Origin: a virus
Length of the DNA stretch: 64,000 nucleotides
IMG/VR virus record: IMGVR_UViG_3300036401_000331
Span: 2,650 to 66,649 of that record
Strand: one strand, 5' to 3'
In this document: positions 5,837-46,139 of the stretch, one piece after another
How the letters are laid out: the number at the start of each line of letters is the position of its first letter
How positions within the stretch are numbered: position 1 is the first letter of the stretch
Notes under the pieces: model-generated
Told to the model about the DNA's origin: nothing
The model's input: the letters and a program-made list of their open reading frames with translations, nothing else
Databases searched by the model: none
Position numbers and translations under genes: made by a program

Positions 5837-5892
5837 CTCCAAGTAGTTGGTCGGCGAAGGCTGCTGAACGCCTAGCATCATGGCCGCCTCCT

Positions 5893-8373: not shown

Positions 8374-8406
8374 GATTAGCCTGCTTCGAGATTGTTGGAA
8401 CAGGTT

Positions 8407-8922: not shown

Positions 8923-8925
8923 AGC

Positions 8926-8945
8926 GCATCCTAAAATCAGGGCGC
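8926..8945. promoter_or_regulatory. Operator-like palindrome immediately upstream of the NusG-family gene
   Basis: GCATCCT-AAAATC-AGGGCGC matches the early-region operator consensus. Confidence 0.55.
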
Positions 8946-9035
8946 GTCCACAGAACACCAGTAAGTGCGATTCTGCGCGACGCGGTGATGGTGACGCGGA
9001 ACCAGTAGCGCCATGGCGGGGATTTGAGCACCCGA

Positions 9036-9278
9036 TCATGGGCTTATGTCAAGCTGGACGTTTTTGGCGAGCAGGCGTTTGCCGGCTGGCGGTCGAGCGG
9101 AGATCGAGGCGACGAGCTTGTCGAGGACAGTGGGGCAGAGGGCGATAAACCTGATCTGCCTGCAGGCGAGGGACTGTCGGAGGGCGATGATGGACATGCC
9201 GGTGTAGATGGCGGCCTCGGGGAGCGACAGATGAACGCTGTCGCGCCATCGTTCCGAGTAGCGGAGGTGGGCCATCAC
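9036..9278 (-). CDS. Small HTH / excisionase-like DNA-binding protein
   Basis: LSLPEAAIYTGMSIIALRQ...QI pattern. Confidence 0.45.
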   Translation of the reverse strand: MMAHLRYSERWRDSVHLSLPEAAIYTGMSIIALRQSLACRQIRFIALCPTVLDKLVASISARPPAGKRLLAKNVQLDISP

Positions 9279-9598
9279 TTGCGCCCCGGATCAATGACCA
9301 TGGTGTTGCCGTTGGTCATGTTGGCGACCTGCTGATAGACGGCATCGCGCTGGTCGAAGTATTGGCGGAACTCGGCGGTGGTGAGCCGCTTGGGCTTGTC
9401 GGGTTCCCACTGGGTGACGAACCGGCTGAGACATCCTCGGGCATCTTTGAGAGCGACGAGGTCGTAGGTCATGGTGACGTTGAAGCGACCGACCTTGAAG
9501 GTTCGCCGGAGGATGCCGCCCTCGGGCATGGGCTCGGGCTTGTCGGGCCGGAAGATGGTCATGGTGACGCCGTTGAGGCGCTCGGTGGTGGCGGTCAT
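9275..9598 (-). CDS. Hypothetical protein
   Basis: ORF with GAGG RBS and stop-start overlap. Confidence 0.65.
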   Translation of the reverse strand: MTATTERLNGVTMTIFRPDKPEPMPEGGILRRTFKVGRFNVTMTYDLVALKDARGCLSRFVTQWEPDKPKRLTTAEFRQYFDQRDAVYQQVANMTNGNTMVIDPGRK

Positions 9599-9668
9599 GT
9601 CTGTCTGCCTCTGCTGTGGTCGAAAAACTTAACTCGACGCTGGACACTAGTGGTTGATCCCGGTTGGT

Positions 9669-9787
9669 CCGCACGAAGGGGCGCACGGGCACGGGGGTCT
9701 AATAGACCCCCCGTGCGCCCCGTGCGCCCCATCATGCAACGGACTGCGCACAGGGGGCGCACGGGGGGTAGCGCACGGGGGTGTGCG
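9669..9787. repeat. Cluster of GCGCACGGGG-like repeats in both orientations around a central palindrome; putative replication origin
   Basis: About 8-9 copies of (GC)GCAC(G/A)GG; GCACGGGGGTCTA-A-TAGACCCCCCGTGC centre; directly downstream of the primase-helicase. Confidence 0.6.
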
Positions 9788-9788
9788 G

Positions 9789-11885
9789 TCACTTTTTTGG
9801 CCCCGGTGTCGTTGGCCAAACATATAGCTCGTACAAGGACATAAGGCCCTTGTCGGCCAACTTTTTGCGAAGCTCGGAGTAGCGCGCACGGATGACACTC
9901 AGTGCGCTCTCCCGTGCGCGCACAGTTAGGCGCACATCCGGGTCTTGCGGCAATAGGTCCACTTTCTGAAGTTCTTCCCTAAATCTGGTAGTCGTGATGA
10001 CCGGCGTCGTGGTCGGATAATTGACCGTATCGGGGGGCTTCATGCCGTGGTTGGCGACGGTGCGGACGAGCACGTCGTGGGCGCGCTGCCATTGCGGCTT
10101 GGGCTTGGCGGGCGGGTCTGGGAACTCGGCCGGGCGGGCGACGACGGAGCGGATCATCTTGTCGGAGCCGTCGACATCCTCGACGATGCCGAGGTCGATG
10201 ACCTCCAGAGCGAAGGCCAGTGCCTTGCTGATCGCGCCGTCGCGGGTCTTGGTGGCGATCCACGAGCGCGGCTCGCTGCTGATCTCGATGACGGTATCGC
10301 ACAGGTCGAACTGGGCCTGTGTGCCGCGTGCGCCCAAGGTGGTGTCCTTGCCGGTGTTCTGGATGACGATGGGCGAGGCCCCGGTGGCACGAGCGACCTC
10401 GCGGCACTTGCCGTAGAAGGCGGCGACTTCCTCGGAGTAGTTCTCGCGCAGGCCGGGGGCGGCCGAACGCATGTTGTCGAGCACGAACACGCCGACCTTT
10501 GGTGCGCCGATTCGCTGGGCCTCGATGTTCATCTCGTTGATGGTGGCGATGACCTTGGCGACGGCGATCTGGCTGGTGGTGGCGTCGATGCCGAAATCGA
10601 CCGGGACAGTGACGATCTTGAAAGGGGCGTCGGGCAGGATGTCGCCGATGACCTTGGACACGTAGGCCTTGAGCCGATTGTAGAACCCGATCTCGCCTTC
10701 GAGCGCGATGTAGAGCACGCCGCACTTGAGCGTTTTGCGCTCGAACCATGGCAGGCCACGCAGCAGACAGAACACGAGGTCGATGACGAGCAGCGTCTTG
10801 CCGGCGGTGCTCGGGCCGAAGATCATGGTGAGGTAGTCGTCCTCGCCGATCAGGCCGGCGACGCGGCGCAGCGGGTCACGCAGTTCGAGGGCGAGGATTT
10901 CGGCCAGCCACTTGCCGGGGAACGGCTTGTCGACAGAGCGCTGCTCGCCCCAGTCATCGGCGCTGCCATTGGGCTCGTAGGGATGGCGGCCGTTGCCGTT
11001 GGGCTTTGCGTGACCGTTGGGCTTGCCCTTGTTGGGGTCGACCCAGCCGGCATCGAGCGCATGGTGGAAGATGGTGCCCTCGCCGACCTGATCGCCGGGC
11101 GAGACGCGCCAGTTGTCCCAGCGCTCGCGACAGGCGCGCTCGTCGAACTTCGAGGACTGCGCCGACCACGCCATGAAGGCCTCGTAGCCGCGCGTCGATC
11201 CGCCGGTCGCCTTGTGGATCGCCATGCCCCGCGTGTTCCACTCCTCCCACGACAGGTCACCATTGCGCATCGCGGCGATGGCATCGTAGAGCCGGTCGGT
11301 GTCATCCATGCGCGGCGCGGCCGGCTTGTCATCGAAGCGCGCCATCGCGGTGCGCACGGCGTACAGGATGTCGACCCCGATGGTGCGCAGCGTGGTGTAG
11401 CCCTGATAGACCGCCTCGGTGACGGCCATGAAGTGCTTGGCGAGGTACTGCTCGATGCCCAAGTCCTTGCCGCCCTTCGGGTTGGGCTTCTGGACGTGCT
11501 TGCGCCAGCGGTGCTTGGCATCGAGCGTCAGCTTGGGATCGTGCAGGAAGAATATCTTCAGCCCGGTCCCCGAGGGCGAAACTTCGGTGTAACTATTGAC
11601 CTTGACAACGATCTCGGCGGCCCATGGTTCGAGGTCGCCCTCCTCGCCGATGCAGGCGTCGAGGTCTATGCCGCCGAGGTGCAGGCCGTCCTCGACCGGG
11701 GCCAGCATGATGTTGATGCCGTCATGGTGACGCTGGTCGCGGCACTGCTCGGCCTCGAAGTAGGTCATCCATGTTGACGGATCGTTCGACTTGGCCAGCC
11801 CGCCGTCGAGCGCGTAGGGCACCTTGCTGGGCTTGTTGCCGCCCGCGCGTATCTCGTTCTTCCACGTCGTCCAGATCGCCGCCAT
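9789..11885 (-). CDS. Primase-helicase (AEP primase/polymerase, PriCT-2, RecA-like AAA_25 helicase)
   Basis: GIDLDAC, SYTEVSPSGTGLKIF; W...GMAIH...AWSAQSSKF; FGPSTAGKT, VLYIALEG; the usual HH motif reads IQNTGKD. Confidence 0.9.
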   Translation of the reverse strand: MAAIWTTWKNEIRAGGNKPSKVPYALDGGLAKSNDPSTWMTYFEAEQCRDQRHHDGINIMLAPVEDGLHLGGIDLDACIGEEGDLEPWAAEIVVKVNSYTEVSPSGTGLKIFFLHDPKLTLDAKHRWRKHVQKPNPKGGKDLGIEQYLAKHFMAVTEAVYQGYTTLRTIGVDILYAVRTAMARFDDKPAAPRMDDTDRLYDAIAAMRNGDLSWEEWNTRGMAIHKATGGSTRGYEAFMAWSAQSSKFDERACRERWDNWRVSPGDQVGEGTIFHHALDAGWVDPNKGKPNGHAKPNGNGRHPYEPNGSADDWGEQRSVDKPFPGKWLAEILALELRDPLRRVAGLIGEDDYLTMIFGPSTAGKTLLVIDLVFCLLRGLPWFERKTLKCGVLYIALEGEIGFYNRLKAYVSKVIGDILPDAPFKIVTVPVDFGIDATTSQIAVAKVIATINEMNIEAQRIGAPKVGVFVLDNMRSAAPGLRENYSEEVAAFYGKCREVARATGASPIVIQNTGKDTTLGARGTQAQFDLCDTVIEISSEPRSWIATKTRDGAISKALAFALEVIDLGIVEDVDGSDKMIRSVVARPAEFPDPPAKPKPQWQRAHDVLVRTVANHGMKPPDTVNYPTTTPVITTTRFREELQKVDLLPQDPDVRLTVRARESALSVIRARYSELRKKLADKGLMSLYELYVWPTTPGPKK

Positions 11886-33844: not shown

Positions 33845-34314
33845 ACGACGACATCAACTTCTTCGACGGCACCGAGTTCGACTTCCTGTCGAACTTCCAT
33901 CCCTGCCTCGTCGACTACGAGGGCCGGCGCTGGACGACGACCGAGCACGCCTATCAGGCGATGAAGACCTACGACGTCGACCAGCAGCGTGCCATCCACA
34001 AGGCGCGCGATCCCGGCCTCGCCAAGATGCTCGGCCAGCGCTGCATCATGCGCAAGGACTGGGACACCGTGAAGTACGACATCATGCTCGACCTGCTGCG
34101 GCTCAAGTTCCGCCAACCGCACTTCACCGGGCTGCTGCTGAAAACTGGCGAACGCAAACTGATCGAGGGCAACACATGGAACGATACCTGCTGGGGCGTC
34201 TGCAACGGCGTCGGCGCGAACAATCTTGGCCGCTCGCTGATGCTGGTGCGCGCCGAACTGCAGCGCGACGTGCTGGCCCAGAAGCTGCTCGACTACATGG
34301 AGCCGACACCATGA
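33841..34314 (+). CDS. NADAR (YbiA-like) family protein
   Basis: FLSNF, TTEHAYQAMK, RKDW, KFRQ, LLKTG..LIEGN.W.D..WG, G.N.LGR.LM.VR. Confidence 0.92.
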   Translation: MNDDINFFDGTEFDFLSNFHPCLVDYEGRRWTTTEHAYQAMKTYDVDQQRAIHKARDPGLAKMLGQRCIMRKDWDTVKYDIMLDLLRLKFRQPHFTGLLLKTGERKLIEGNTWNDTCWGVCNGVGANNLGRSLMLVRAELQRDVLAQKLLDYMEPTP

Positions 34315-34523
34315 GGTGGCGCGGCATCATCTTCGGCCTGCTGCTGGCGCTGCCGTTCTGGCTGGTCATCGTCGGCGTCGCCTGCGCCCAGAGCGAACGG
34401 ACGGTCTGCTACAAGTCGGGCCGCGACACGATCTGTAGGACGACCACCGAGTACGGGACGACCGTGCAGGAAACCCGCTGCTACAAGAGCGGCAACGACA
34501 CCATCTGCGACACGAGGAGATAG
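34311..34523 (+). CDS. Small exported protein with duplicated CYKSGxDTIC motif
   Basis: Hydrophobic leader ending ACA; TVCYKSGRDTIC and TRCYKSGNDTIC. Confidence 0.65.
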   Translation: MRWRGIIFGLLLALPFWLVIVGVACAQSERTVCYKSGRDTICRTTTEYGTTVQETRCYKSGNDTICDTRR

Positions 34524-36311: not shown

Positions 36312-36550
36312 TCAAGATGACCGGAACCGGGCCGAAGGGCAGACCCATGCTGATCATCGGCTTGAGCGAGGGCAATCTCGGCCGGCTGCGCGAAGGCAAG
36401 CCGGCGATCATCCACGGCGAGGAATGGGGGCAGGCCTTCGACCTCACGATCTTCTGGGGCGAGACCGAGGATGCCATGACCAAGATGGTGGCACCCTTCA
36501 TTGGCCCCCAGACCCGCGTGCGCGACAGTCGTCGCGACAGGAAGAACTGA
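36308..36550 (+). CDS. Hypothetical protein
   Basis: IGLSEGNLGRLREGKP motif. Confidence 0.65.
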   Translation: MIKMTGTGPKGRPMLIIGLSEGNLGRLREGKPAIIHGEEWGQAFDLTIFWGETEDAMTKMVAPFIGPQTRVRDSRRDRKN

Positions 36551-36653
36551 TGGCCCGGATCGCCGCCTGCGTGGCGCTCGCCATGGCGCTCGGTGTCGCC
36601 GTCGGGCTGGCCTACGTGCTGACCGTCGCCGCCATCATGGAGCGCCCGCCGTG

Positions 36654-36908
36654 GTGAAGCTGACCGACATCGCGTGGTCGCAGCGCACCATGGCCAGCCT
36701 GCAGGATGGCGGTGTCTGGGGCGTGCCGCGCTCGGCGCTGATCTTCACCAAGCGGGGCAACGCGCTGGTGCTGACCGCCGCCATGCCGCACCACGACGCC
36801 CTGCCGATGGACGCCGACGACTGGAAGGAGTTTCAGGACGATGACTTCGCCGCCATCAAGCTCGTCTTCGAGGCCGCCGGGTTCGAGGTCACCGATGCCC
36901 GGCCCTGA
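36654..36908 (+). CDS. Hypothetical protein
   Basis: DGGVWGVPRS motif; coupled ORF. Confidence 0.6.
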   Translation: MKLTDIAWSQRTMASLQDGGVWGVPRSALIFTKRGNALVLTAAMPHHDALPMDADDWKEFQDDDFAAIKLVFEAAGFEVTDARP

Positions 36909-37137
36909 CTGGTACGGACGCCGCGCGCCGCCGGCTATCCCGCGCCGCACCGACCTGCTGCTGGCCGGCGGGTCGGTCGATGGCGGCTGGCTCAGCAGCC
37001 CGGTCGAAAACCCCATCGGCGAGCCTGCCCGGACCCCGATCTGGGCCGGATTGGGTAAAACCGCCGCCGGGCTGGCTGCGCTGGCCGCCCTAGCGGCGGG
37101 CGCTTGGTGGCTGGCCCTCCATGGCCCCGGAACCTGA
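36895..37137 (+). CDS. Hypothetical protein with C-terminal TM
   Basis: Last plus-strand ORF of the early region. Confidence 0.45.
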   Translation: MPGPDWYGRRAPPAIPRRTDLLLAGGSVDGGWLSSPVENPIGEPARTPIWAGLGKTAAGLAALAALAAGAWWLALHGPGT

Positions 37138-37155
37138 AGCCCTCTGGCGGGCTCC

Positions 37156-37407
37156 CTAGCGATGCCAGTGGCCGCCGTGGCCGCCCCACCAATGGCCGCC
37201 ACCCCAGCCGCCCAGCCCGAGGTTAATTCCCACAGCAACTGGAGGGTAATAGGCCGGGGCCGCGTAGTAGACCGGGGGCGGCGGGTAGTAGGCTGGCTGG
37301 ATGGGCACGGGGTAGCCGGGCTGGTAGCCGGGCGCGACGGGCTGGACGTAGTAGCCGGGCGCGGGCACCTGACAGAGCGCGAAGGCTAGGATCAAGCAAC
37401 CGATCAT
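37156..37407 (-). CDS. Small exported Pro/Tyr-rich protein with Gly/Trp/His tail
   Basis: Hydrophobic leader; YYPPPPVYYAAPAYYPP; GGWGGGHWWGGHGGHWHR; GAGGAGG RBS. Confidence 0.65.
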   Translation of the reverse strand: MIGCLILAFALCQVPAPGYYVQPVAPGYQPGYPVPIQPAYYPPPPVYYAAPAYYPPVAVGINLGLGGWGGGHWWGGHGGHWHR

Positions 37408-37449
37408 TGGGCAGTCCTCCTCTGGTACGAGGTACGGCTCCGATTGTGG

Positions 37450-37923
37450 TCACGCCGTGGCGACCAGTCCCTCGAAGGTGCCGGCGCGGGTGATGGTCAG
37501 CATCTGGCCGCGCGGCTCGACGCCGGGAGCCGACACCGCGAGATGGACCCACTCGTCGCCCTCGCCGTCAACCCCGCACTCGTAGATCAACTGGTCGATG
37601 CCGAGCGCCTCGATGAAGCGCTCCAGCCGCTGGCAGATTTCATAGGGTGTGCCGAAGTCGGGCGCGACGAAGTCGCAGGCGTCGCCGTACAGGTGCGCCG
37701 AGTTGGCGGCACCGCCGCACTGGGTGTTGAGCGCCGGGCAGCGGTAGCCCGAGGTGATGATGATCGGGCTGTTGCGCAGCAGCAGGCGCACGTCCTCCAT
37801 GGTCTCGCTGAGCCCGGTGAGTTCGTCGATCACTTCGGGCGGCGCGCTGTTGTCGATGCCGCAGGCGGCGGCGGTGTTCGACGCGGTGTACTCCTCCAGC
37901 GTGAAGTGCTCGGTCAGTTGCAT
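37450..37923 (-). CDS. Endolysin, peptidase M15 family
   Basis: LTEHFTLEE, SGYRC..LN..GG..NSAH..G.ACDF, WVHL. Confidence 0.9.
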   Translation of the reverse strand: MQLTEHFTLEEYTASNTAAACGIDNSAPPEVIDELTGLSETMEDVRLLLRNSPIIITSGYRCPALNTQCGGAANSAHLYGDACDFVAPDFGTPYEICQRLERFIEALGIDQLIYECGVDGEGDEWVHLAVSAPGVEPRGQMLTITRAGTFEGLVATA

Positions 37924-37924
37924 G

Positions 37925-38122
37925 TCAGCCTCCGATCAGGTGCCAGACGAAACTCAGGACGCCGAGAACGAACAGCACGGCGCTCGCCTTGCCGAGCAGC
38001 GAGATGGTGTCGTCGCTGGTCGCCGCGCGCGACCACGGCCCCATGCCGAGCACGGTCTCGATGAAGGCGAAGGCCATCAGCAGGAAAGCGACGATCAGGG
38101 CGATGACGGAGAAGTAGATCAT
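37925..38122 (-). CDS. Two-TM holin candidate
   Basis: Two TM helices; directly upstream of the endolysin. Confidence 0.5.
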   Translation of the reverse strand: MIYFSVIALIVAFLLMAFAFIETVLGMGPWSRAATSDDTISLLGKASAVLFVLGVLSFVWHLIGG

Positions 38123-38361
38123 TTGCGGTCCCGCAGGGCTGAGAAGGCAATCGCGGCGGCCAGCGCGGTCGCTAAAAGTTCACCGAGCCGGTCCATCACC
38201 GGGCCGCACGAGACCTTCCCTTCAACGATGGCGGGTGTCCAGTACAGGCACGCGCCAGCGCTCGCCAGCACGACTGCACACTGGACGGCCAGCACGCCCG
38301 CGACCAGCCAGAACGCGCCGCGCAGGGGATCGAACGGGGGCTTGTCCACGACGGTAACCAC
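38119..38361 (-). CDS. Membrane protein, holin/antiholin candidate
   Basis: Two hydrophobic segments; coupled to the next gene. Confidence 0.5.
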   Translation of the reverse strand: MVTVVDKPPFDPLRGAFWLVAGVLAVQCAVVLASAGACLYWTPAIVEGKVSCGPVMDRLGELLATALAAAIAFSALRDRK

Positions 38362-38475
38362 ACGATCATAATTTGGGTGTTGCCAACTGCTGTCAATTCG
38401 GGCTTAGCTCCCGTCCGGTCGCTGGATGTCCAGTGATCTCTACGTGACTAGTCACAATCTAGGGAGACCATCTAC

Positions 38476-38883
38476 ATGAAGAACCTCAAGATCGCCCTGC
38501 TCGCGGGCGTTGCGGTTGCGGCACTGTCCTTCGGGGCGATGGCGCAGCAGCTTACGGTCGGCGTCGGTACGTCCAGCGCGGGCGTGCAGGGTGCGGCTGG
38601 CTCGACCAGCAACAGCCAGTCGGGTGCCATCCTGATCGGCGCGGCCACCGGCTCCACGTCCGGTGCGTCGACCACGACGGGTCTGGCCGCCGGCCAGAAC
38701 ACCATCGGCAACGGCTCCTCGACGAGCATTGCCAACAACACCCAGACGGCCGGTTCGGCCACCACGACCACGAGCGCGGCTATCGGCCTCGCCGCGACGA
38801 CCAACCCGAGCACCGCCTCGGCTGGTTCGACCGGCGCGGGCGCTGGCGCGGGCACGTTCATCACGTTCAAGATCGGACCGTGA
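38476..38883 (+). CDS. Secreted Ser/Thr/Gly/Ala-rich protein
   Basis: Sec signal peptide ending AMA; mature part has a single charged residue; AGGGAG RBS. Confidence 0.8.
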   Translation: MKNLKIALLAGVAVAALSFGAMAQQLTVGVGTSSAGVQGAAGSTSNSQSGAILIGAATGSTSGASTTTGLAAGQNTIGNGSSTSIANNTQTAGSATTTTSAAIGLAATTNPSTASAGSTGAGAGAGTFITFKIGP

Positions 38884-39024
38884 TCTAGGCTTCGCGCGGG
38901 GACAATGCCCCCTGTGTGAAGTTCCCCTTCCGAGGGGAAGGCCCCCGGTGCCCCACGCATCGGGGGCCACCCTCTGGTTTTCAATATCGTGGGTAAACAA
39001 TCGAGAGGTTATCCTATCAATCGC

Positions 39025-39711
39025 ATGAAGAACTCCAAGACTCTGCTCTACGGACTGGCACTCGCAGCGAGCATCGCGCTTGCGCCTCAGTCCTTCGCCC
39101 AGACCGCCAACTCCACGTCGGGTGCCGCGTCTAGCTCGACGGCGGGCTCGCAGTCGGGCTCGAACTCCGGTGCTGCGGCGATCCTCACCACCATCAACAA
39201 CGTGCCGGCCAACACCACTTCCAACAACACGCTGAACGACCGCGTGTCGGGTGGCACCAACAACACGCTGACCACGACCGACCGCAGCACCAGCGATGTC
39301 ACGCTGCGCACCACGCCGACGGTCTACGCGCCGCCAGTTTCTGGCGGTAACCCCTGCACGCTCGCCGTGTCGGGTGGCGTGTCGGTGATCGGCTGGGGTG
39401 CGGCCGCTGGCGGCACCTTCGTCGATCAGGATTGCGCCAATCGCCAGAAGATCGCGATGATCCACAACGCAGGCTACCAGCAGGCGGCTCGCGAACTGAT
39501 GTGCAACGACCGCGACACCTACATGGCGTTCAAGGGCACGCAGACGCCGTGTGCATGGCGCGCTCAGTACGAGCCCAAGGAGGCGGTGCAGCCGCCCATG
39601 GTGCAGGCTCCTCCGCAGCCGGTCGCCCCGCCGCCGCCCGCTGTCGTCCAGCGCAAGGAGTACCCGCGCTGCGACCAGCGTCGTGGTATCGTCGACAACT
39701 GCCGCAGCTAA
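39025..39711 (+). CDS. Secreted protein with S/T/N-rich N-terminus, Cys-containing core and YPRC...DNC tail
   Basis: Signal peptide ending SFA; NPCTLAVSGGVSVIGWGAAAGGTFVDQDC...LMC...TPC. Confidence 0.8.
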   Translation: MKNSKTLLYGLALAASIALAPQSFAQTANSTSGAASSSTAGSQSGSNSGAAAILTTINNVPANTTSNNTLNDRVSGGTNNTLTTTDRSTSDVTLRTTPTVYAPPVSGGNPCTLAVSGGVSVIGWGAAAGGTFVDQDCANRQKIAMIHNAGYQQAARELMCNDRDTYMAFKGTQTPCAWRAQYEPKEAVQPPMVQAPPQPVAPPPPAVVQRKEYPRCDQRRGIVDNCRS

Positions 39712-39815
39712 GCAGCCATTCCGTTGCCGCCTTCCCCAAGGGAAGCAACGGATCGCCCCCGCTCCTTCCCACAGCAACCCACTGGGAGCGGGGGCACCCT
39801 TTTCAGGATCACCAC

Positions 39816-40169
39816 ATGCTCCGCTTCTTTCTGATCGTCATCGGCGGCCTGCTGCTCGGCGCGATCATCGTCCAGATCGCACAAGCCCAGAACCGGGTGC
39901 CGTGCTGGCCCGTGCCAAATGGTGTCAATGCGACGACGCAGTGCGCCAACGGCTACTGGCAGACCATCACGCCCGAGGGCGAGGTCTTCACCGGCAACGG
40001 CCCGACCGATCCCAGCGCCACCGCACGCGGCTCGTCCATCGTCATCAACCCCGCGACCGGCGGGCCATTCGTGGGGGCCGGTCCGACCGTCACGCCACCC
40101 ACCCAAGTGCTGCCGATGCTGGAGCCCTATCAGGCCCAGCAGTACGGTTTTCAACCTCGCCAAGACTAA
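39816..40169 (+). CDS. Secreted hypothetical protein
   Basis: Signal peptide ending AQA; one Cys pair. Confidence 0.7.
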   Translation: MLRFFLIVIGGLLLGAIIVQIAQAQNRVPCWPVPNGVNATTQCANGYWQTITPEGEVFTGNGPTDPSATARGSSIVINPATGGPFVGAGPTVTPPTQVLPMLEPYQAQQYGFQPRQD

Positions 40170-40181
40170 GGAGATACCGTC

Positions 40182-40406
40182 GTGAAACTCATGCTCGCCT
40201 TCGCTCTCGTTGCCCTGCCTGTCGTTGCCATGGCCCAGACCCTGCCGCCGACCGCCACGCCCGGCGTGCCGACCAAGCAGCAGGACATGCTTGTCACGCT
40301 GCCGCAGAAGGACAACACCTTCACCATCGTGAACAAGCCCGCGCCGCAGTCGAACGTCACCACGTTCAGCGTGCCGGTGCCGTCGCTCAATCCACCGAAG
40401 CAGTAA
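40182..40406 (+). CDS. Small secreted protein
   Basis: Signal peptide ending AMA; AAGGAG RBS. Confidence 0.7.
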   Translation: MKLMLAFALVALPVVAMAQTLPPTATPGVPTKQQDMLVTLPQKDNTFTIVNKPAPQSNVTTFSVPVPSLNPPKQ

Positions 40407-40426
40407 CCGAAAAGGGAGAACGTCAC

Positions 40427-40660
40427 ATGAAGAAGTTGCTCACGGCGCTGATCGTTGGCGTTCTCCCGCTCGGCGCGGCCGCGCAGGACCACTCCCGCCA
40501 CGACATCGCGTTCAACTCCATCCGCAACGTCAAGGCGGTGGTCGACACCACGGTCACGACGGTGCAGACCATCGGCTCGTCGCTCACCACCATCGTCGGC
40601 AATGTCGGCGATCCTATTCCCGGCTGCGTCGGCCGGGTTTGCGGAGCACCCAGTCAATGA
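40427..40660 (+). CDS. Small secreted protein
   Basis: MKKLLTALIVGVLPLGAAA; C-terminal CVGRVC. Confidence 0.7.
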   Translation: MKKLLTALIVGVLPLGAAAQDHSRHDIAFNSIRNVKAVVDTTVTTVQTIGSSLTTIVGNVGDPIPGCVGRVCGAPSQ

Positions 40661-40839
40661 TCGCCTGCATCGTCGGCGCGATCCTGTGCAGCCAGTCGGC
40701 TGCCATCCAGATCGACGGGCCGCTCGCCTATGCCCGCTCCCAGCCCGGCGTCGCGTGGAACTACGCGGCCTACTACGCCGTGCCGACCTACCAGTTTCCA
40801 TCGGTGTTCCCGATCACGCTGGTGCGCGGCCACAGTTGA
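40657..40839 (+). CDS. Small possibly secreted protein
   Basis: ATGA-coupled; hydrophobic N-terminus. Confidence 0.5.
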   Translation: MIACIVGAILCSQSAAIQIDGPLAYARSQPGVAWNYAAYYAVPTYQFPSVFPITLVRGHS

Positions 40840-40882
40840 GGGGAACCGACCGCCATTCTCCCCCGGCGGCGGACGTACCAAA

Positions 40883-40919
40883 CGGCGAGGACTTCGTGAG
40901 CCTCGCCGATTTCTTTTTC
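40883..40919 (+). terminator. Rho-independent terminator of the secreted-protein cassette
   Basis: CGGCGAGG-N10-CCTCGCCG followed by ATTTCTTTTT. Confidence 0.75.
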
Positions 40920-41160
40920 AGACCTTGGCTTTCGGCGGCCCGTCCGGCGGCGGCTGCGTCGCCGGCTTGTCGACCTGATTGAGCGGCGGCAGCTTCATCG
41001 GCTCGGCAAGAGACGGTGCCGGGGCCGACTTGTAGCCCTGCGCGTACAGTTGCGCCTTGACGTCGGCGTAGGTGTCGCCGACCTGATCGGCCGGCAGGCG
41101 GCCGAGCGTCACCAAGATGTCGGCGGCTGCCTTGTCGGTGAGGTTGAGCGTGTAGGCCAT
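40918..41160 (-). CDS. Small tail-fibre-associated protein
   Basis: GGAGG RBS; LGRLP..QV pattern typical of small genes after fibres. Confidence 0.65.
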   Translation of the reverse strand: MAYTLNLTDKAAADILVTLGRLPADQVGDTYADVKAQLYAQGYKSAPAPSLAEPMKLPPLNQVDKPATQPPPDGPPKAKV

Positions 41161-41171
41161 CGGTTCCTCCT

Positions 41172-44100
41172 TCAGGTCTTGATGATGTAGTTGAGCACCA
41201 GCGTCGGCTGGACGGTGGAATTGCTGTGGCTGTGATCGCCGACCGCCGGGCCGCCGCCGACAATGCCGTAGATGCCAGCGCCCGGCACGGTGCCCGTGGT
41301 GGCTCCCTGCACACCGACCGCCGCGTTGAGCGCGGCGGCACCTGACAGGCGCAGGCCGCCGACATCGACCATGGCGATCACCCGGCCCCTGAGATCGGGC
41401 ACGTTGAAGTTGGAGCCGCTGCCGCCGTAGGTGTAGGCGATCACCGCGAACAGCGCCGACATCGCACCGCTCGTCGAGTACGACGCGCCGTCGCACATCA
41501 CGTAGCCCGAGGGAGCCGTCGAGCCGGCGTAGGGCGTGATCTGGCCGGGGAACAGCACGCCGCCCGGCGTGCCCGGTGGCCCTTGCGGCCCGGTCGGGCC
41601 GACGCCGATCTCTTGGATCGTCATCACCTCGCGCTGCGCGCCGCCACCAAATCGGTTGCTGCCGTTCGACAGCGCGTAGCTGGTCGTTGTGCCGCCAAAA
41701 CGCAGGGTGAAGGTGTGCGCGCCAGCCGCCAGCACGCCCTGCCAGTAGATACGACCGGGTGACAGAGCGCCGTTGACCGGAATGAAGATCGACGTCTGCG
41801 CGACTGCCGCTGCCACGCCGTCGATGAACAGGCCAACCGCGTTCCAACTATTGGACCCGCCCACCTGAATCTCGGCATCGACTTGGATGGGATGACTGGC
41901 GTCGACAGCAGTGAACGAGCGGCTGAAAAGCTGCGTGCCGTTCGTGATCTGCATGGTGGCGTCGCCGGCCGCCCCGGCGAACAGCGTGGTGTCCGTCACG
42001 ACGGTGCTAACGGTGTCGTAGGTCGGCGCGGCGACAGGTCCGCCGGTTGGTCCCGGCGGTCCCTGCGGGCCGACGATGCCGACGCCGACCTCGGTGATCG
42101 ACATCGAGGACTTCATCGCGCCGCCGCCGACCGGATTGCCGGCGGTCGAATTGAGGTAGCCGTTCGCGGCATTGCCGGCGAAGCGCACGGCGAAGGTGTG
42201 TGCGCCCGCCGCCAGAGTGCCGCGCCAGCGGATGCGCGTCGGCGGCCCGTACCAAGCGGTGTTGAACACCGCGACTTCCTGCGCCACGGCGTTGGTCGCG
42301 CCGTCGATGAACAGCGCGCCAGCCAGCGTCATCGCGCTGCCGCCCGCGCCCAAGTTCAGGATGATGTCGACCTCGATGGGATGGCTGGCGTCGACCGCCG
42401 TGAAGCTGCGGCTGAAGACCTGCTGGCCCATCGTGATCGTCATCACGTTGTTGGCGTTGGCACCGGGGAAGGTGCCGGTGTCGGCGATCAGCGTGCTGCT
42501 CTCGTCGTAGGTCGGCGTGGCCACCGAGGGCGCGACGCTCTTGACCCACGAGGTCGTGGCCACAGTGTTGTCGTTCGACGTGCTGGGCGGTGAGGCGCGC
42601 AGCAGCAGCGTGTCGGCCGTGGTGTAGCGGAACAGTTCGACGCCGCCGTTGTTGAACCATGCGAATTGAGCGGCTGTCGGGTTAGGGGCCTGCGCGCGGA
42701 ACAGCATGCCCCACGTCGCGTCGGCGTAGATCGCGCCGGGCTGCCACTGCCCGCCGCCATAGATCGTGACGCCGCCGAAGTAGCCGTTGGCGTAGCGCAC
42801 CGACGTCGTGCCGATGTTCGAGGTGAGATCGGCGCGCGGGTAAATCCCGCCATTGATCAGGCTGTCGCCGTTGGAAGTGATGTTGACCGAAGTGACGCCG
42901 CCGGGATCGCGCATCGTGATCACCGAGCCGACGACGGAGCCCGAGTTCAGTTCGAGGCAGGCGGCGTGCGCGGCGTTGGCACCCGTCATGTAGAGCCGGC
43001 CGGATGCCTGCGTCGCGGTGCCGATATTGGTATCGGGAAGGCCGACGCCGAGGCCGTTATGGCTGTCGTCGGCAACCGCCGCGACCAGAACGCCGCCACT
43101 GTCCCAGACCTGCAGCTTGGCCGACTGGCTGCCGGTCGCGTTGCCCATGTAGACCTTGCCGCCCTCGAAGCCGGTGACGCCGGCCGGCGCGAAGGTGATC
43201 GCCTTGACGTAGGTGCCGGTGCCGTTGTTCGACAGGAAGTCGTAGACCAGCGAGGTGCCGGTGTGGCGCTGGTTGAGATGCAGGCCCCAGTTGGTCGGAT
43301 CGGGCGACCATTTCCACTCCTGCAGCAGGTCGGCGGTGTTCGACGCGGTGTTGCGCGCAATGTGGATCGGGTAGCTGGTCAGCAGCATCTGCTGCGCGCC
43401 GGAGAGGCGCAGCATCTCGACGGACGCGCCGCCGTAGTTGACGAAAGCTGTCAGGTCCGACTTGCCGCCGCCCGCCAAGTTCGGGCCGACCATGTCGGCG
43501 TTCCAGCCGCCCCAGTAGGCGTAGGCGTTGTTGAGGTCGATGCCCTCGAAGCGCAACTGGCCGAGCGCCGAATCGGCCGGCGGGCCGGGATTGGTCGTCT
43601 GGCCGCTGCGCCACAGCGACATGATTGCCGGGCCATAGGCGGTGTCGGACAGGGTCTGGGCGCGCACCAGCCCGCCCGTGCTCGGGCTGCCGGTGCCGTA
43701 GCCGTAGGATGCGATGAAGCCGGTGACGCCGAGATTGCTGCTGAGATTGACTTGGCCGTAGAACTGGGCAGTGCCGGTGACGGCGAAAGTGCCGATCACT
43801 TGCAGGTTGCTGCTGAAGTAGCCGGTGCCGGCCGTGATCCCGGCGTCGACCATCGGCCCGGTGCCACCCGGCCAGTGCTGGAAGTGGAAGCCCGCCCCGT
43901 AGCGCTCAACGAGGTTCACCTCGCCGGCCCCGTTGGAGTAGTTCCAGCCGACCGCCATGCCGCTCGACCAGTCGGTGCGCGGATTGTTCAGGCCGATGTT
44001 CGAGGTGAAGTAGCTCCACTGCTCGCCGAACACGTTGCCGGCCGTCATCGGGCTCGCACCGACCGACATCTCGACATGGCCGCTGTTCAGCCCGATCCGC

Positions 44101-46139
44101 ATGTAGTCGCTGCTGCCGGAGAGGTTCTGGAACAGGTGCAGCGTGTTGCGGTGGATGCTGAGATTGCCGACCGCGCTGCCGCCGAGGTAGAGCGCGATCT
44201 GGTTAGAACCGTTGGTGAAGAAGGTGTAGCCGTTCGCCCCACCTTGGTTGGCCATGCCGCCGCCGGACTGCAGGGCGAAGTTGCTGCCGGCGACCTGTGC
44301 GACCGTGTTGATGTTGCCGGGCGCATCGACGGTGGCGTTGCCGTTGAGATAGAGCAGCCCGTTCGATCCGACTTCGAGTTGCTTGCCGGTGCCGACCCCG
44401 GTGAAGCCGAGGCCGACGCCACCCGAATCCCAGAACAGGTAGCCGTGCTCACTGGCATCGACGGTGCGCAGCAGCTTCGGCATCGCCGTCGACCAGTCGC
44501 CGCCCGCCGTCGGCCGGTCGTAGCGCACGGTCACGCGGTCGACGTTGGCGGTCGCCGTCTCAAGGTAGAGCAGTTCCTGCTTCGAGCCGGCCGCCACGCC
44601 CAGCGCCGGGGCGTTGACGATCAACTCGCCGGGGAACGTCACCGAGCCATTGCGGTGGAAGATGAACAGCGCCTGCTCGACGGTGAAGGCGTCGTTAACG
44701 GCGCGCAGGTAGACGTTGCCGTCGGTCCTGACCTGCATGTCCCAGAGCTTGAGATCGAGGCCGTTGCCGGTCGCCTGCCAGCCGACCGACGGGTTGACGC
44801 TGGCATAGGCGACATGGTTCGGGCTGAAGATCGCGCCGGGCGAAACGAAGCTGAGATCGCTGTTGAACGCCCAGTGGCCGAGATCGGTCCCGCTATCGTC
44901 GAGCCGGCGCAGGTACATGTTGCCGTCGTCCCAAGCGCGCATGTCCCAGCGCTTGAGGTTGACGGCGTTGTCGCTGTTGAACCACGCGAAGCCGGGATTG
45001 ACCGTGGCCTGCGCGGTGAAGACCGGCGCGGCAAACGATGTGCCGTAGACCGGGCCGGTGAAGGTGCCGCCACCGAGCGGCATGAAGTTGGCGTTCACCC
45101 AAGTGTGGGTCGCCGTGTAGGTCTCGTCGATGCCGATGACGATGTCGCCCTGCGTGCCGCCGCCGGTCAGGCCGTCGGTCACCGCGACGCCAAGAATTGG
45201 CCCATCGCCCGTCGCGGTGTTGAGGTAGCCGGTCAGCTTGACGCGGGTGCCCACGGGTGGCGGCCAGCCGGTGCCACCGCTGCTGGTGCTGGAGCCGATG
45301 TAGACTGCCCTGATGATGACCCACTGGGCATGCGCCGGGTCGGCCGGGTTGGGGTGCGGCACCGGATAGTCGATGATGTCGAAGCGGCTGTAGTCGGTGA
45401 CCGGCGTGAACTCGTTGGTGATGATGAAGCTGTCGCCGGGCTCGAACAGCAGCAGGTAGCGGCCGACGCCGTCGGCGTCGATGGTACTGATCGAGAAGGT
45501 GTACTGCGTCGAGTTGGGAACCGGCGGCGTGGTGTCCGGCTGGCCCATGAAGTTGCCGACACCGGGATTGGTCGTCGGCACGACGACGTTGCCCTCGTAC
45601 CTGTAGATCGCATCGCCCTGACCGCGCGTGGCGAACAGCGAGCGCACCCATGCCGTCGAGGCCGCCGCCGCGCTGTTGTCGGTGTAGTCGACAATCGGCA
45701 CATGGGCGTAGTTGCCGGCGATGTTCGGCACGTCGAAGTGCTTGACCGTGAGCGCGTCGCTGATGTCGACGCTGCCGGTGATGCTGCCGCCGGTCAGCGG
45801 CAGGAACTGGTTGGTCCGCGCCTTGACGTAGCCGACCGTCGCCAGCCGCGCGTCGAGCGAACTATCGGTCGGCGAGGGCGAGGCCTGCGGCGCACCCGTC
45901 AGCGACGCCGAATCGAGCGGCGCATACTCGCGATGGACCCAGAACGTGGTCGGGATCGAGGTGTCGTTGTCGCCGAACGGCGGTGTCGGCGCATGCGGGT
46001 CGCCCGTGAACTGCGGCGAGTCGAGGGGCGCGGCCATGCCGACCACGATCCACTGCTGGCCGTTCCACTTGTAGGTCACGCCGTTCGGCGCAGCGAAGGT
46101 CTGGCCGACAATCGGGGCAGAAGGGAAGTCGATCAGCAT
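41172..46139 (-). CDS. Long tail fibre protein with C-terminal tail-collar domain
   Basis: IDFPSAPIVGQ; APLDSPQFTGDP.APTP; collagen-like GPQGPPG; GYVMCDG...FNVPDLRGR...NYIIKT. Confidence 0.88.
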   Translation of the reverse strand: MLIDFPSAPIVGQTFAAPNGVTYKWNGQQWIVVGMAAPLDSPQFTGDPHAPTPPFGDNDTSIPTTFWVHREYAPLDSASLTGAPQASPSPTDSSLDARLATVGYVKARTNQFLPLTGGSITGSVDISDALTVKHFDVPNIAGNYAHVPIVDYTDNSAAAASTAWVRSLFATRGQGDAIYRYEGNVVVPTTNPGVGNFMGQPDTTPPVPNSTQYTFSISTIDADGVGRYLLLFEPGDSFIITNEFTPVTDYSRFDIIDYPVPHPNPADPAHAQWVIIRAVYIGSSTSSGGTGWPPPVGTRVKLTGYLNTATGDGPILGVAVTDGLTGGGTQGDIVIGIDETYTATHTWVNANFMPLGGGTFTGPVYGTSFAAPVFTAQATVNPGFAWFNSDNAVNLKRWDMRAWDDGNMYLRRLDDSGTDLGHWAFNSDLSFVSPGAIFSPNHVAYASVNPSVGWQATGNGLDLKLWDMQVRTDGNVYLRAVNDAFTVEQALFIFHRNGSVTFPGELIVNAPALGVAAGSKQELLYLETATANVDRVTVRYDRPTAGGDWSTAMPKLLRTVDASEHGYLFWDSGGVGLGFTGVGTGKQLEVGSNGLLYLNGNATVDAPGNINTVAQVAGSNFALQSGGGMANQGGANGYTFFTNGSNQIALYLGGSAVGNLSIHRNTLHLFQNLSGSSDYMRIGLNSGHVEMSVGASPMTAGNVFGEQWSYFTSNIGLNNPRTDWSSGMAVGWNYSNGAGEVNLVERYGAGFHFQHWPGGTGPMVDAGITAGTGYFSSNLQVIGTFAVTGTAQFYGQVNLSSNLGVTGFIASYGYGTGSPSTGGLVRAQTLSDTAYGPAIMSLWRSGQTTNPGPPADSALGQLRFEGIDLNNAYAYWGGWNADMVGPNLAGGGKSDLTAFVNYGGASVEMLRLSGAQQMLLTSYPIHIARNTASNTADLLQEWKWSPDPTNWGLHLNQRHTGTSLVYDFLSNNGTGTYVKAITFAPAGVTGFEGGKVYMGNATGSQSAKLQVWDSGGVLVAAVADDSHNGLGVGLPDTNIGTATQASGRLYMTGANAAHAACLELNSGSVVGSVITMRDPGGVTSVNITSNGDSLINGGIYPRADLTSNIGTTSVRYANGYFGGVTIYGGGQWQPGAIYADATWGMLFRAQAPNPTAAQFAWFNNGGVELFRYTTADTLLLRASPPSTSNDNTVATTSWVKSVAPSVATPTYDESSTLIADTGTFPGANANNVMTITMGQQVFSRSFTAVDASHPIEVDIILNLGAGGSAMTLAGALFIDGATNAVAQEVAVFNTAWYGPPTRIRWRGTLAAGAHTFAVRFAGNAANGYLNSTAGNPVGGGAMKSSMSITEVGVGIVGPQGPPGPTGGPVAAPTYDTVSTVVTDTTLFAGAAGDATMQITNGTQLFSRSFTAVDASHPIQVDAEIQVGGSNSWNAVGLFIDGVAAAVAQTSIFIPVNGALSPGRIYWQGVLAAGAHTFTLRFGGTTTSYALSNGSNRFGGGAQREVMTIQEIGVGPTGPQGPPGTPGGVLFPGQITPYAGSTAPSGYVMCDGASYSTSGAMSALFAVIAYTYGGSGSNFNVPDLRGRVIAMVDVGGLRLSGAAALNAAVGVQGATTGTVPGAGIYGIVGGGPAVGDHSHSNSTVQPTLVLNYIIKT

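What the first reader, a model, noticed from the sequence alone, without database searches (positions are those of the whole stretch)
38476..40919. Antisense cassette of six signal-peptide proteins: candidate phage-encoded extracellular fibre or amyloid system
Seen: between the lysis and tail-fibre genes, six consecutive plus-strand ORFs begin with export-type leaders (five with AxA followed by Q) and end at their own terminator. Gene 1's mature 112 aa is almost all S/T/G/A/N/Q with one charged residue and an internal repeat (GSTSNSQSGAILIGAAT / GSATTTTSAAIGLAAT). Gene 2 starts with a similar S/T/N tract (STSGAASSSTAGSQSGSNSGA) and continues into a Cys-stabilised domain with a glycine-rich hydrophobic hairpin. 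Genes 3-6 are small and beta/Pro-rich. Virion proteins do not normally use Sec signals, so these act in the host envelope or outside the cell. Inference: a major subunit, a nucleator/anchor and accessory factors, organised like curli or Fap but without their signature repeats; it could modify the host surface, biofilm or superinfection.
Basis: partly seen in the sequence, partly recalled or inferred. Interest (0 to 1): 0.8.

Follow-up and report, generated by a model that had tools for sequence, protein, structure and literature searches.

The report
Exported protein cassette in soil phage
An uncultured soil phage carries a self-contained set of small genes for proteins that are sent out of the cytoplasm, four of which travel together in related phages and belong to undescribed families, so they probably remodel the infected cell's envelope or surface, but what they build is not yet known.

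Summary
Six plus-strand genes (38476-40839) with Sec-type leaders lie between an M15 endolysin/holin-like block and a 1655-aa tail fibre gene, all on the minus strand, and end at an intrinsic terminator. The window is a 66.6-kb virus record with myovirus-type tail genes.

Four genes (g1, g2, g3, g6) form a conserved module in 18 related viral loci: g1 in 17, g3 in 16, g6 in 16. g4 and g5 occur in none. No gene matches Pfam, NCBIfam or PADLOC. g2 belongs to a large unnamed family (1322 cluster representatives).

Related bacterial genomes (Alphaproteobacteria MAGs) pair a g2-like gene with another S/T/G-rich exported protein. A strongly folded spacer after g1, present in all 12 loci folded, suggests g1 is made in excess. 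The first 50 residues of g1 and g2, leader included, resemble each other.

The curli/Fap-like reading is partly supported as an analogy (major subunit plus partner plus accessories). It is not supported as membership: no curlin repeat, CsgG or CsgF, and no fibre or amyloid evidence.

Best reading (0.4): a mobile, separately transcribed, exported envelope or surface module. A lysis role is a weaker rival. Interest is moderate.

The parts
38362..38475 (.). Divergent non-coding region between the minus-strand lysis block and g1. It holds the g1 ribosome-binding site (GGGAGA) and, on the minus strand, a promoter-like site.
   Evidence: Sequence read. A sigma-70-like site on the minus strand lies at 38396->38368. 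No plus-strand site was found by the scan. Relatives also have at least 100 nt of non-coding DNA upstream of g1.
38476..38883 (+). g1: leader plus a 112-aa mature protein, 83% S/T/G/A/N/Q, one charged residue, conserved C-terminal hydrophobic strand ending in Pro. Proposed abundant subunit.
   Evidence: Orthologues occur in 17 of 18 related loci. The 15-sequence alignment has no gap in the mature part. Codon-position substitution pattern. No Pfam, PHROG, NCBIfam or PADLOC family.
38884..39024 (+). Structured g1-g2 spacer: three G+C-rich hairpins, the last followed by a short U-run. Proposed attenuator or mRNA stabiliser.
   Evidence: Folding of 38884-38990 gave -60.8 kcal/mol, z -5.8, and 0 of 200 shuffles folded as well. 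A terminator-like site lies at 38962-38974. Spacers of 83-148 nt with z -2.1 to -6.7 occur in 12 of 12 loci folded.
39025..39711 (+). g2: leader, S/T/N-rich tract, conserved four-Cys core (Gly-rich stretch between C111 and C137, then three helices), Pro-rich linker and a C-terminal Cys pair. Member of a large unnamed family.
   Evidence: 1322 representatives at E<=1e-3. phrog_20531 'unknown function' at 1e-8. AlphaFold2 is confident only for helices 135-169. No PDB sequence or fold match.
39816..40169 (+). g3: leader plus a small disulfide-bonded four-strand beta-meander, then a conserved extended Pro-rich tail.
   Evidence: 79 homologues, all at least 59% identical. Alignment. AlphaFold2 pLDDT 71. 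No fold match with E below 0.03. Present in 16 of 18 loci.
40182..40406 (+). g4: 74-aa leader-bearing Pro-rich protein. Strain-specific insert.
   Evidence: Third-position G+C 0.88. Found in 0 of 18 related loci. No relative in viral contigs.
40427..40660 (+). g5: 77-aa leader-bearing protein with a C-terminal Cys pair. Strain-specific insert.
   Evidence: Third-position G+C 0.85. Found in 0 of 18 related loci. No relative in viral contigs.
40657..40839 (+). g6: 60-aa peptide (66 aa from the TTG at 40639) with an N-terminal C-x6-C hydrophobic stretch, a Pro/Tyr/Ala-rich middle and a hydrophobic C-terminus.
   Evidence: 16 of 18 loci. The Cys pair is not a conserved lipobox: position -1 is A, L or Y.
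40883..40920 (+). Intrinsic terminator closing the cassette. It faces the end of the minus-strand tail-fibre block.
   Evidence: G+C-rich hairpin followed by GAUUUCUUUUUC. For the folded 40840-40925 stretch that holds it, z is -2.0 and 5 of 200 shuffles folded as well.

Best explanation
The cassette is a mobile transcription unit of its own that sends a set of small proteins through the Sec pathway into the envelope of the infected cell.

Composition:
- The conserved core is g1, g2, g3 and g6.
- g4 and g5 are strain-specific inserts in a variable slot between g3 and g6.

Proposed mechanism:
- g1 is made in excess because hairpins after its stop codon attenuate read-through or stabilise its message.
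- After leader cleavage, the uncharged, strand-prone g1 assembles into a proteinaceous layer or fibre in or on the envelope.
- Assembly is started or anchored by g2. The N-terminal tract of g2 resembles g1, and its disulfide-bonded core sits in the periplasm or outer membrane.
- g3 and g6 act as small accessory factors.
- The pay-off for the phage is a changed cell surface: exclusion of other phages, masking of receptors on debris, or adhesion and aggregation of host cells.

Shown: the genes, their conservation and linkage, leader-like N-termini, RNA structures, the terminator, the size and spread of the g2 family, and a similar gene pair in bacterial chromosomes.

Inferred: export, stoichiometry, assembly, location and biological effect.
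For: Linkage of the module:
- g1 occurs in 17, g3 in 16 and g6 in 16 of 18 related viral loci that hold g2, in the same order.
- Two pairs of these loci are near-identical (L009/L010 and L018/L019), so about 16 are independent.
- Two further loci carry g1+g2 only (L114, L123).

Own transcription unit:
- At least 100 nt of non-coding DNA lies upstream of g1 in all 15 sequences read.
- g1 has a strong ribosome-binding site, and a terminator follows g6.
- Orientation relative to the lysis genes varies: same strand in 9 loci, opposite in 4 and in the window.

Mobile:
- In the close loci the module lies next to a tail fibre gene (window, L008), a terminase gene (L009, L010, L013) or replication genes (L005).
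- Distant g2 homologues, each with an S/T-rich partner gene upstream, lie after a capsid gene (L020) or near an integrase (L023).
- The module occurs in integrase-free complete genomes of 62-70 kb and in a 46-kb genome with an integrase.

g1 in excess: the g1-g2 spacer is strongly folded in 12 of 12 loci.

g1 has a defined shape:
- No gaps occur in the mature part among 15 orthologues at 31-62% identity.
- It has a period-2 residue pattern and is under purifying selection.

g1-g2 relation: hhalign probability 92%, E 5.9e-7, over the first 50 residues of each.

Cellular counterpart that is not lethal:
- 24 loci in Alphaproteobacteria/Acetobacteraceae MAGs hold g2-like genes.
- In at least 7 of 11 inspected, a 160-186-aa S/T/G/A/N-rich leader-bearing gene sits directly upstream.
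- The pairs are sometimes in tandem and lie beside housekeeping genes.

Periplasmic location: 1 of 50 family members scanned is fused to an OmpA-type peptidoglycan-binding domain.
Against: - No experiment or transcript data exist. No RNA run holds the sequence.
- No outer-membrane channel or known secretion component is present, so an extracellular location is unsupported.
- Structure prediction gave no fibre-like or barrel-like model. g2 is mostly low-confidence, and the Atlas's stored model of g1 has pLDDT 0.43.
- The g1-g2 similarity includes the leader and low-complexity sequence, which can inflate profile scores.
- The bacterial 'g1-like' proteins share only the leader with phage g1 (hhalign). 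That parallel rests on composition and position alone.
- The cassette lies next to lysis genes in 13 of 18 loci, and distant g2 homologues also sit near endolysins. A lysis-linked role would explain this more directly.
Confidence: 0.4

Rival explanations
1. Lysis accessory. The exported proteins accumulate in the envelope late in infection and help breach the outer membrane or time lysis, in place of canonical spanins.
For: - The cassette lies within a few kb of an M15 endolysin or holin-like gene in 13 of 18 related loci. In L014, L015 and L018 it lies directly upstream of them on the same strand.
- Distant g2 homologues sit near endolysins of two types: HTVC023P gp45 is four genes before M15 gp49, and in L024 the homologue is next to a Hydrolase_2 enzyme.
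- No lipobox ORF, and so no canonical o-spanin, was found in the window or after the endolysin in L008, L014, L015 and L018.
- About 15% of phages lack spanins (abstract of bioRxiv 10.1101/515445, seen in the listing).
Against: - The cassette has its own leader region and terminator and is antisense to the lysis genes in the window and in 4 loci.
- In L005 it sits among replication genes. In L020 and L023 the g2-like pair sits after a capsid gene or near an integrase.
- Only 12 of the 80 best viral loci with a related endolysin carry it within 7 kb.
- g2-like genes with an S/T-rich partner stand in bacterial chromosomes beside housekeeping genes, some in tandem copies. That is unlikely for an outer-membrane-breaching device.
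- g3 is predicted as a beta-meander, not a coiled coil.
- An excess of g1 is not expected for spanin-like function.
- My test for complementarity with lipoprotein spanins was too crude to decide: 2 of 12 against 11 of 68 loci, with false positives.
Confidence: 0.15
2. A bundle of separately acting periplasmic effectors, for example inhibitors of incoming phages' wall-degrading or injection proteins in the manner of T4 Spackle and Imm. They are kept together only by shared regulation, and no joint structure is built.
For: - Position, own transcription unit and variable inserts (g4, g5, and other small genes in relatives) are typical of phage accessory cargo.
- The C-terminal Cys loop of g2 comes in two alternative versions among relatives, as expected for a specificity-determining binder.
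- The T4 Spackle and Imm comparison is recalled, not tested.
Against: - The order g1-g2-g3-g6 is strictly conserved.
- The attenuator after g1 is conserved.
- The g1-g2 N-terminal likeness points to a stoichiometric assembly.
- No PADLOC family matched.
Confidence: 0.2
3. g1 is a secreted Gly/Ser/Thr-rich bacteriocin- or microcin-like peptide, and g2, g3 and g6 serve in maturation or immunity.
For: The composition and size of mature g1 (uncharged, small-residue-rich, about 11 kDa) recall class II microcins. This is a recalled resemblance, not a test.
Against: - Leaders are Sec-type, not double-glycine, and there is no ABC exporter.
- No family match was found.
- g2 is itself exported and far larger than typical immunity proteins.
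- The benefit to a lytic phage is unclear.
Confidence: 0.07
4. There is no joint function: six unrelated small cargo genes that happen to lie together.
For: g4 and g5 are unique to this phage. None of the six has a known family.
Against: - Four genes stay linked in order across loci with 31-79% protein identity.
- 6 of the roughly 9 leader-like ORFs in 64 kb fall within 2.4 kb.
Confidence: 0.05

Closest known systems
Curli (CsgA/CsgB with CsgE, CsgF, CsgG) and the curli-related gene cluster reported in pelagimyophages (PMC7029224; passages on 'curli' read)
   Same: - A small exported, Gly/Ser/Asn/Gln-type, strand-prone major protein.
- A second protein whose N-terminus resembles the first.
- Small accessory exported proteins.
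- Phage carriage of such a cluster has a precedent in phages of Alphaproteobacteria, also of unknown function.
   Different: - No curlin repeat, CsgG or CsgF, and no lipoprotein channel.
- g1 has no clear repeat periodicity.
- The pelagimyophage cluster is defined by CsgF and CsgG homologues, which are missing here.
- The supplements of that paper were closed. I could not check whether its 'two hypothetical proteins' resemble g1 or g2.
Lambda-type morons for exported envelope proteins (bor beside Rz/Rz1, lom among tail-fibre genes; cor of T1/phi80). Recalled knowledge.
   Same: - Lies at the tail-fibre/lysis junction.
- Has its own terminator.
- Antisense to its neighbours.
- Carries Sec leaders.
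- Presence and position vary among relatives.
   Different: - A conserved four-gene module rather than a single gene.
- Same base composition as the phage.
- Present in complete genomes without an integrase.
- No homology to Bor, Lom or Cor.
Spanins (Rz/Rz1, unimolecular gp11) and the disruptin of phage phiKT
   Same: Exported small proteins encoded beside the holin and endolysin. Cys pairs and Pro-rich stretches.
   Different: - No lipobox.
- No N-terminal membrane anchor with a coiled coil.
- Not cationic.
- Own transcription unit, and not tied to the endolysin (12 of 80 loci).
Caulobacter holdfast anchor proteins HfaA/HfaB/HfaD. Recalled knowledge.
   Same: An alphaproteobacterial set of small exported proteins that form stable multimers at the envelope.
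   Different: No NCBIfam or Pfam match to any Hfa or CsgG-like protein. There is no polysaccharide context.

Membership tests
Curli system | Major subunit made of curlin repeats (Pfam PF07012) | tested here: not met
   No Pfam hit for g1 or g2 at E<=1. PF07012 gave 0 matches in the whole virus record, while the control rang in E. coli.
Curli system | CsgG outer-membrane lipoprotein channel and CsgF | tested here: not met
   PF03783 and PF10614 gave 0 matches in the record. The record is 82% complete.
Curli system | Nucleator homologous to the major subunit | tested here: inconclusive
   g1 residues 1-54 align with g2 residues 1-50 at hhalign probability 92%, E 5.9e-7. The stretch includes the leader and low-complexity sequence.
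Curli / Fap functional amyloid | Fibres with amyloid properties (dye binding, detergent resistance) | not testable with these tools
   This needs expression and biochemistry. The four-copy g1 fold job gave no verdict.
Two-component or unimolecular spanin | Outer-membrane lipoprotein with a lipobox | tested here: not met
   No convincing lipobox ORF was found in the window under two regex scans. In g6 orthologues the residue before the second Cys is A, L or Y.
Two-component or unimolecular spanin | Inner-membrane anchor followed by a periplasmic coiled coil | tested here: not met
   The g3 model has an N-terminal helix with a cleavage-type site, then a beta-meander. g2 has a cleavable-type leader.
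Phage moron (own promoter and terminator, variable presence) | Own terminator and independent orientation | tested here: met
   Terminator. The cassette is antisense to both flanks. Orientation and neighbours vary among loci.
Phage moron (own promoter and terminator, variable presence) | Own promoter | tested here: inconclusive
   The scan found no plus-strand sigma-70-like site. Relatives show -35/-10-like hexamers by eye, for example L012 and L005.
Phage moron (own promoter and terminator, variable presence) | Base composition unlike the host phage | tested here: not met
   G+C and third-position G+C match the rest of the window.
Chaperone-usher fimbriae | Pilin, chaperone and usher domains | tested here: not met
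   No Pfam hits for the six proteins. One g3 homologue is named 'type 1 fimbria pilin' by its source, but no fimbrial Pfam family was among the 13 families matched at E<=1 by the 44 g3 members.
g2 family (unnamed; phrog_20531) | Leader, S/T/N-rich tract, core with four conserved Cys around a Gly-rich stretch and three helices | tested here: met
   Alignments. phrog_20531 at 1e-8. 1322 representatives at E<=1e-3.

The most novel reading that the evidence does not exclude
g1 and g2 define a new, widespread two-part system for building an exported protein polymer: a strand-prone S/T/G-rich subunit templated and anchored by a disulfide-bonded g2-family protein. Alphaproteobacteria use it, and their phages have captured and extended it with g3 and g6 to coat or link infected cells. 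It would be a functional analogue of curli that uses unrelated proteins and an unknown route across the outer membrane.
Probability: 0.2. Interest if true: 0.8.

Novelty: new variant of a known kind. Interest (0 to 1): 0.55.

Why it matters
Phage genes for exported proteins are usually single add-ons. Here a four-gene exported module is kept in order across a clade of abundant soil and rhizosphere phages. One of its parts belongs to a family of more than a thousand sequence clusters that has no name, no domain model and no structure.

If the module builds a surface structure, it would be a second case of phages bringing their own fibre or coat machinery, after the curli-related cluster of pelagimyophages, and it would use new proteins. 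If instead it acts in lysis, it would add a new answer to how spanin-less phages breach the outer membrane.

Either way it gives a tractable entry to an uncharacterised envelope protein family of Alphaproteobacteria.

Tried and rejected
Family and fold searches that found nothing:
- Pfam, NCBIfam, PHROGs and PADLOC on the six proteins gave only phrog_20531 (unknown function) for g2.
- The g2 profile against PDB sequences gave only low-complexity chance hits.
- Foldseek of the g2 and g3 models against PDB, and of g3 against BFVD, gave nothing at E<=0.001.
- The protein Atlas returned only unnamed clusters, plus one auto-named 'CheA family' with no common Pfam.

Searches for relatives:
- The word-index search with g1 found nothing, not even itself. 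I take this to be an effect of composition filtering.
- hhalign of phage g1 against the bacterial S/T-rich neighbours aligned the leader only.
- g3 against isolated phages gave no match.
- g4 and g5 against viral contigs gave no relatives.
- The first scan of genome contigs with the close alignment found nothing. A broad alignment was too diverse to use.

Structure and context tests:
- Complex prediction with four copies of mature g1 returned 'no answer', score 0.02. It is not evidence either way.
- Rfam on 37000-41500 gave nothing near threshold.
- No inverted repeats flank the cassette, so an invertible segment is unlikely.
- The palindrome GTGACTAGTCAC upstream of g1 is no more frequent than chance.

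Sequencing runs:
- No RNA holder is listed.
- Reads and contigs laid on 36500-42500 showed the identical stretch and no joint with a side of 30 letters or more.

Spanin complementarity: a crude regex found lipobox ORFs in 2 of 12 cassette loci and 11 of 68 cassette-less loci. It had false positives, so the result is not decisive.

Literature: searches for the module found no description of it. Only the pelagimyophage curli-related cluster came up, as a parallel.

Rejected ideas:
- Virion component: Sec leaders and an own transcription unit argue against it.
- Outer-membrane beta-barrel for g1: it has no aromatic girdle and only two aromatic residues.
- Lipoprotein for g6: the lipobox is not conserved.
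Full report
**What the window is**

The window lies in a 66.6-kb virus record judged 82% complete. Contigs of 76,575 bp in two public soil/rhizosphere runs hold the studied stretch letter for letter. The exact 2.7-kb stretch is held by 24 soil or rhizosphere DNA runs and by no RNA run.

PHROG matches identify a terminase, portal, primase, tail sheath, baseplate hub and wedge, and tail fibres, so the tail genes are of the myovirus type. The closest isolated phages share only 37-47% terminase identity. G+C is about 66% throughout.

**The observation**

Late genes run on the minus strand. The tail fibre genes include a 1655-aa ORF at 41172-46139 that hits tail fibre/collar PHROGs. An 80-aa ORF follows. 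Further on come two small two-membrane-segment proteins (38361-37925), an M15 endolysin (37923-37450; PF08291 at 1.4e-16; phrog_894) and an 83-aa Pro/Tyr/Gly/His/Trp-rich protein (37407-37156).

Between these blocks, six genes run on the plus strand. Their third-position G+C is 0.83-0.90, like the neighbouring genes. Five have good ribosome-binding sites.

Each starts with a positively charged n-region, a hydrophobic core and a small-x-small site. In g1-g5 that site is followed by Q. No SignalP was available, so the leaders rest on a heuristic. Run over the whole window, the same heuristic finds 8 leader-like ORFs, 5 of them here. g1 was lost only to my own composition filter.

The low-complexity g1 also has an open antisense frame. 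Three facts favour the plus frame:
- Differences between orthologues are highest at codon position 3 and lowest at position 2 (0.444 against 0.284 per site over 30 pairs).
- The mature part aligns without gaps in 15 orthologues.
- The leader and stop codon are conserved.

A G+C-rich hairpin with a U-run closes the cassette at 40883-40920. The exceptions are small: g2 has SFA rather than AxA, g6 is a weak leader, and the internal repeat of g1 is only weakly supported (z 2.7 at shift 49).

**Conservation**

g2 has 154 homologues in the word-indexed protein set. None of the 120 listed has a domain or an informative name. Its profile finds 1322 representatives of 50%-identity clusters at E<=1e-3, of which 287 are at E<=1e-10.

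In viral contigs the profile found 23 loci. In the 18 close ones, profile searches of all six frames gave these counts:

| Gene | Loci with a match (of 18) | Note |
|---|---|---|
| g1 | 17 | the missing locus is cut |
| g3 | 16 | one locus is cut; L013 truly lacks it |
| g6 | 16 | both missing loci are cut |
| g4 | 0 | |
| g5 | 0 | |

L009/L010 and L018/L019 are near-identical pairs, so about 16 loci are independent. The slot between g3 and g6 holds different small genes in different phages. Two more loci carry g1 and g2 alone.

g3 has 79 close homologues and none distant. The cassette is thus a four-gene module with a variable slot, not a six-gene one.

**Transcription signals**

All 15 sequences read have at least 100 nt of non-coding DNA before g1, and nearly all show a GGAGA-type ribosome-binding site there.

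The g1-g2 spacer is unusually long for a phage (83-148 nt). It folds far better than shuffled sequence in 12 of 12 loci (z -2.1 to -6.7). In the window the fold is -60.8 kcal/mol, and 0 of 200 shuffles folded as well. The stems differ between clades while the architecture and the loop CCCCACG persist. The last hairpin is followed by a short U-run, which the consensus scan flagged as terminator-like. I read this as attenuation or message stabilisation that gives more g1 than downstream products. That reading is an inference.

**Position**

A lysis gene lies in 13 of the 18 loci: an endolysin in 12 and holin-like holB in 10. It is on the same strand as the cassette in 9 loci and on the opposite strand in 4 and in the window. 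The other flank is a tail fibre or a terminase gene.

Other contexts also occur:
- In L005 the module sits among replication genes.
- In the distant viral loci L020 and L023, a g2-like gene with an S/T-rich leader-bearing partner lies after a capsid gene or near an integrase.

Of the 80 best viral loci with a related M15 endolysin, 12 hold the cassette within 7 kb.

Three complete relatives (62-70 kb) and the window's record lack a tyrosine integrase. A 46-kb relative with terminal repeats has one.

**The proteins**

- g1: the mature chain is 112 aa and 83% S/T/G/A/N/Q, with one charge and two Phe. It has four or five short hydrophobic stretches, a period-2 pattern and a conserved C-terminal strand ending in Pro.
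- g2: leader, an S/T/N-rich tract of variable length, then an almost invariant core, VRTTPTVYAPPVSGGNPC...GWGAAAGGTFVDxDC...RQKIAM...ELMC...PC. A Pro-rich linker follows, then one of two alternative C-terminal Cys loops.
- g2 model: AlphaFold2 is confident only for three helices at 135-169. The Gly-rich stretch between C111 and C137 is not modelled (pLDDT below 50).
- g2 fusion: one family member of 50 scanned carries a C-terminal OmpA-type domain, which points to the periplasm.
- g3: folds as an N-terminal helix plus a disulfide-bonded four-strand meander, with an extended conserved tail (pLDDT 71).
- g6: a peptide of 53-71 aa with a C-x6-7-C hydrophobic start that is not a conserved lipobox.

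None of the models or profiles matches a solved or viral predicted structure. The first 50 residues of g1 and g2 align with hhalign probability 92%.

**Cellular relatives**

A subfamily of g2 occurs in 24 loci of Alphaproteobacteria MAGs, including Acetobacteraceae and Rhodopila. It is sporadic: 5 of 301 genomes sampled across the class and 7 of 151 across the family had a match. Only part of the candidates were scored in those searches.

In at least 7 of 11 loci inspected, a 160-186-aa leader-bearing protein with 63-73% S/T/G/A/N/Q lies directly upstream. In L026-L028 the genes are in tandem copies, and the neighbours are housekeeping genes. These upstream proteins have no family and share only the leader with phage g1. 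The parallel is one of composition and position.

**How it most likely works**

The facts fit best with a mobile, separately transcribed module that exports an abundant strand-prone subunit (g1), a partner that resembles it at one end and carries a disulfide-bonded envelope domain at the other (g2), and two small helpers (g3, g6). Together they would build or modify a structure in or on the envelope (confidence 0.4). The biological effect (exclusion of other phages, receptor masking, adhesion or aggregation) is inferred from where such cargo sits in other phages, and from the pelagimyophage curli-related cluster whose authors proposed aggregation (PMC7029224, passages read).

A lysis role (0.15) is suggested by the neighbourhood and by the lack of a lipobox ORF in the window. 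It is weakened by the independent transcription unit, the other genomic contexts, the 68 of 80 related-endolysin loci without the cassette, and the benign-looking chromosomal pairs.

Separately acting periplasmic inhibitors (0.2), a microcin-like peptide (0.07) and mere coincidence (0.05) remain possible.

**Comparison and novelty**

The layout works like curli in outline, but every curli membership test failed or was inconclusive. It resembles lambda-type exported morons in position and signals, but it is a conserved multi-gene set with the phage's own base composition. It is not a spanin by any defining feature tested.

Four literature searches found no description of this module or of the g2 family. 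I rate it a new variant of a known kind (phage-borne exported envelope cargo), built from undescribed families, with a 0.2 chance of being a new polymer system. Interest is 0.55.

Noticed in passing
window 37156-37407 (-): An 83-aa protein closes the lysis block. Its N-terminus, MIGCLILAFALC, is like that of g6 (M-x-x-C, hydrophobic stretch, C). A Pro/Tyr-rich middle follows, then a Gly/Trp/His-rich end. Relatives lie between the holin-like gene and the endolysin in L003, and just after the holin-like gene in L012. No PHROG or PADLOC family. It could be this phage's outer-membrane-acting lysis factor.
   Followed up: partly
window 34311-34523 (+): A 70-aa ORF with a leader ending ...VGVAC and two copies of CYKSG(R/N)DTIC. 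It is a possible small lipoprotein or exported Cys-repeat protein at the end of the plus-strand early block. No PADLOC hit.
   Followed up: partly
window 40921-41161 (-): An 80-aa ORF directly after the tail fibre gene, facing the cassette terminator. No PHROG family.
   Followed up: partly
window 41172-46139 (-): The 1655-aa tail fibre has collagen-like GPQGPPGP stretches. It also has an internal duplication of a roughly 150-aa unit: '...FSRSFTAVDASHPI...' occurs twice.
   Followed up: no
L024:84-4847: A low-G+C (38%) viral contig has its g2-like gene inside a run of five further leader-bearing proteins (125-298 aa, no Pfam family), next to a Hydrolase_2 cell-wall hydrolase. This may be a larger exported cluster built around the same family.
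   Followed up: partly
L026-L028 (bacterial MAG contigs), about 5800-11500 in each locus: Two or three tandem copies of g2-like genes lie beside housekeeping genes such as an ArgJ-like gene. In L026 and L027 they alternate with S/T/G-rich leader-bearing genes.
   Followed up: partly
g2 orthologues in L007, L009, L014, L018 versus the window, L008, L015, L017: Two alternative C-terminal modules follow the Pro-rich linker: ...LPRCSRTITDNCYAG-type and ...GRFACMDARGREV...GASCGYI-type. Each has a Cys pair, which suggests a swapped binding end.
   Followed up: no
Pelagibacter phage HTVC023P, L025:6809-9864: gp45 is a distant g2-family member with a leader, an S/T/N tract and four Cys. It is followed by gp46 (461 aa, leader, very acidic) and gp48 (membrane anchor plus coiled coil), ahead of the M15 endolysin gp49. 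All but gp49 are annotated as hypothetical.
   Followed up: partly
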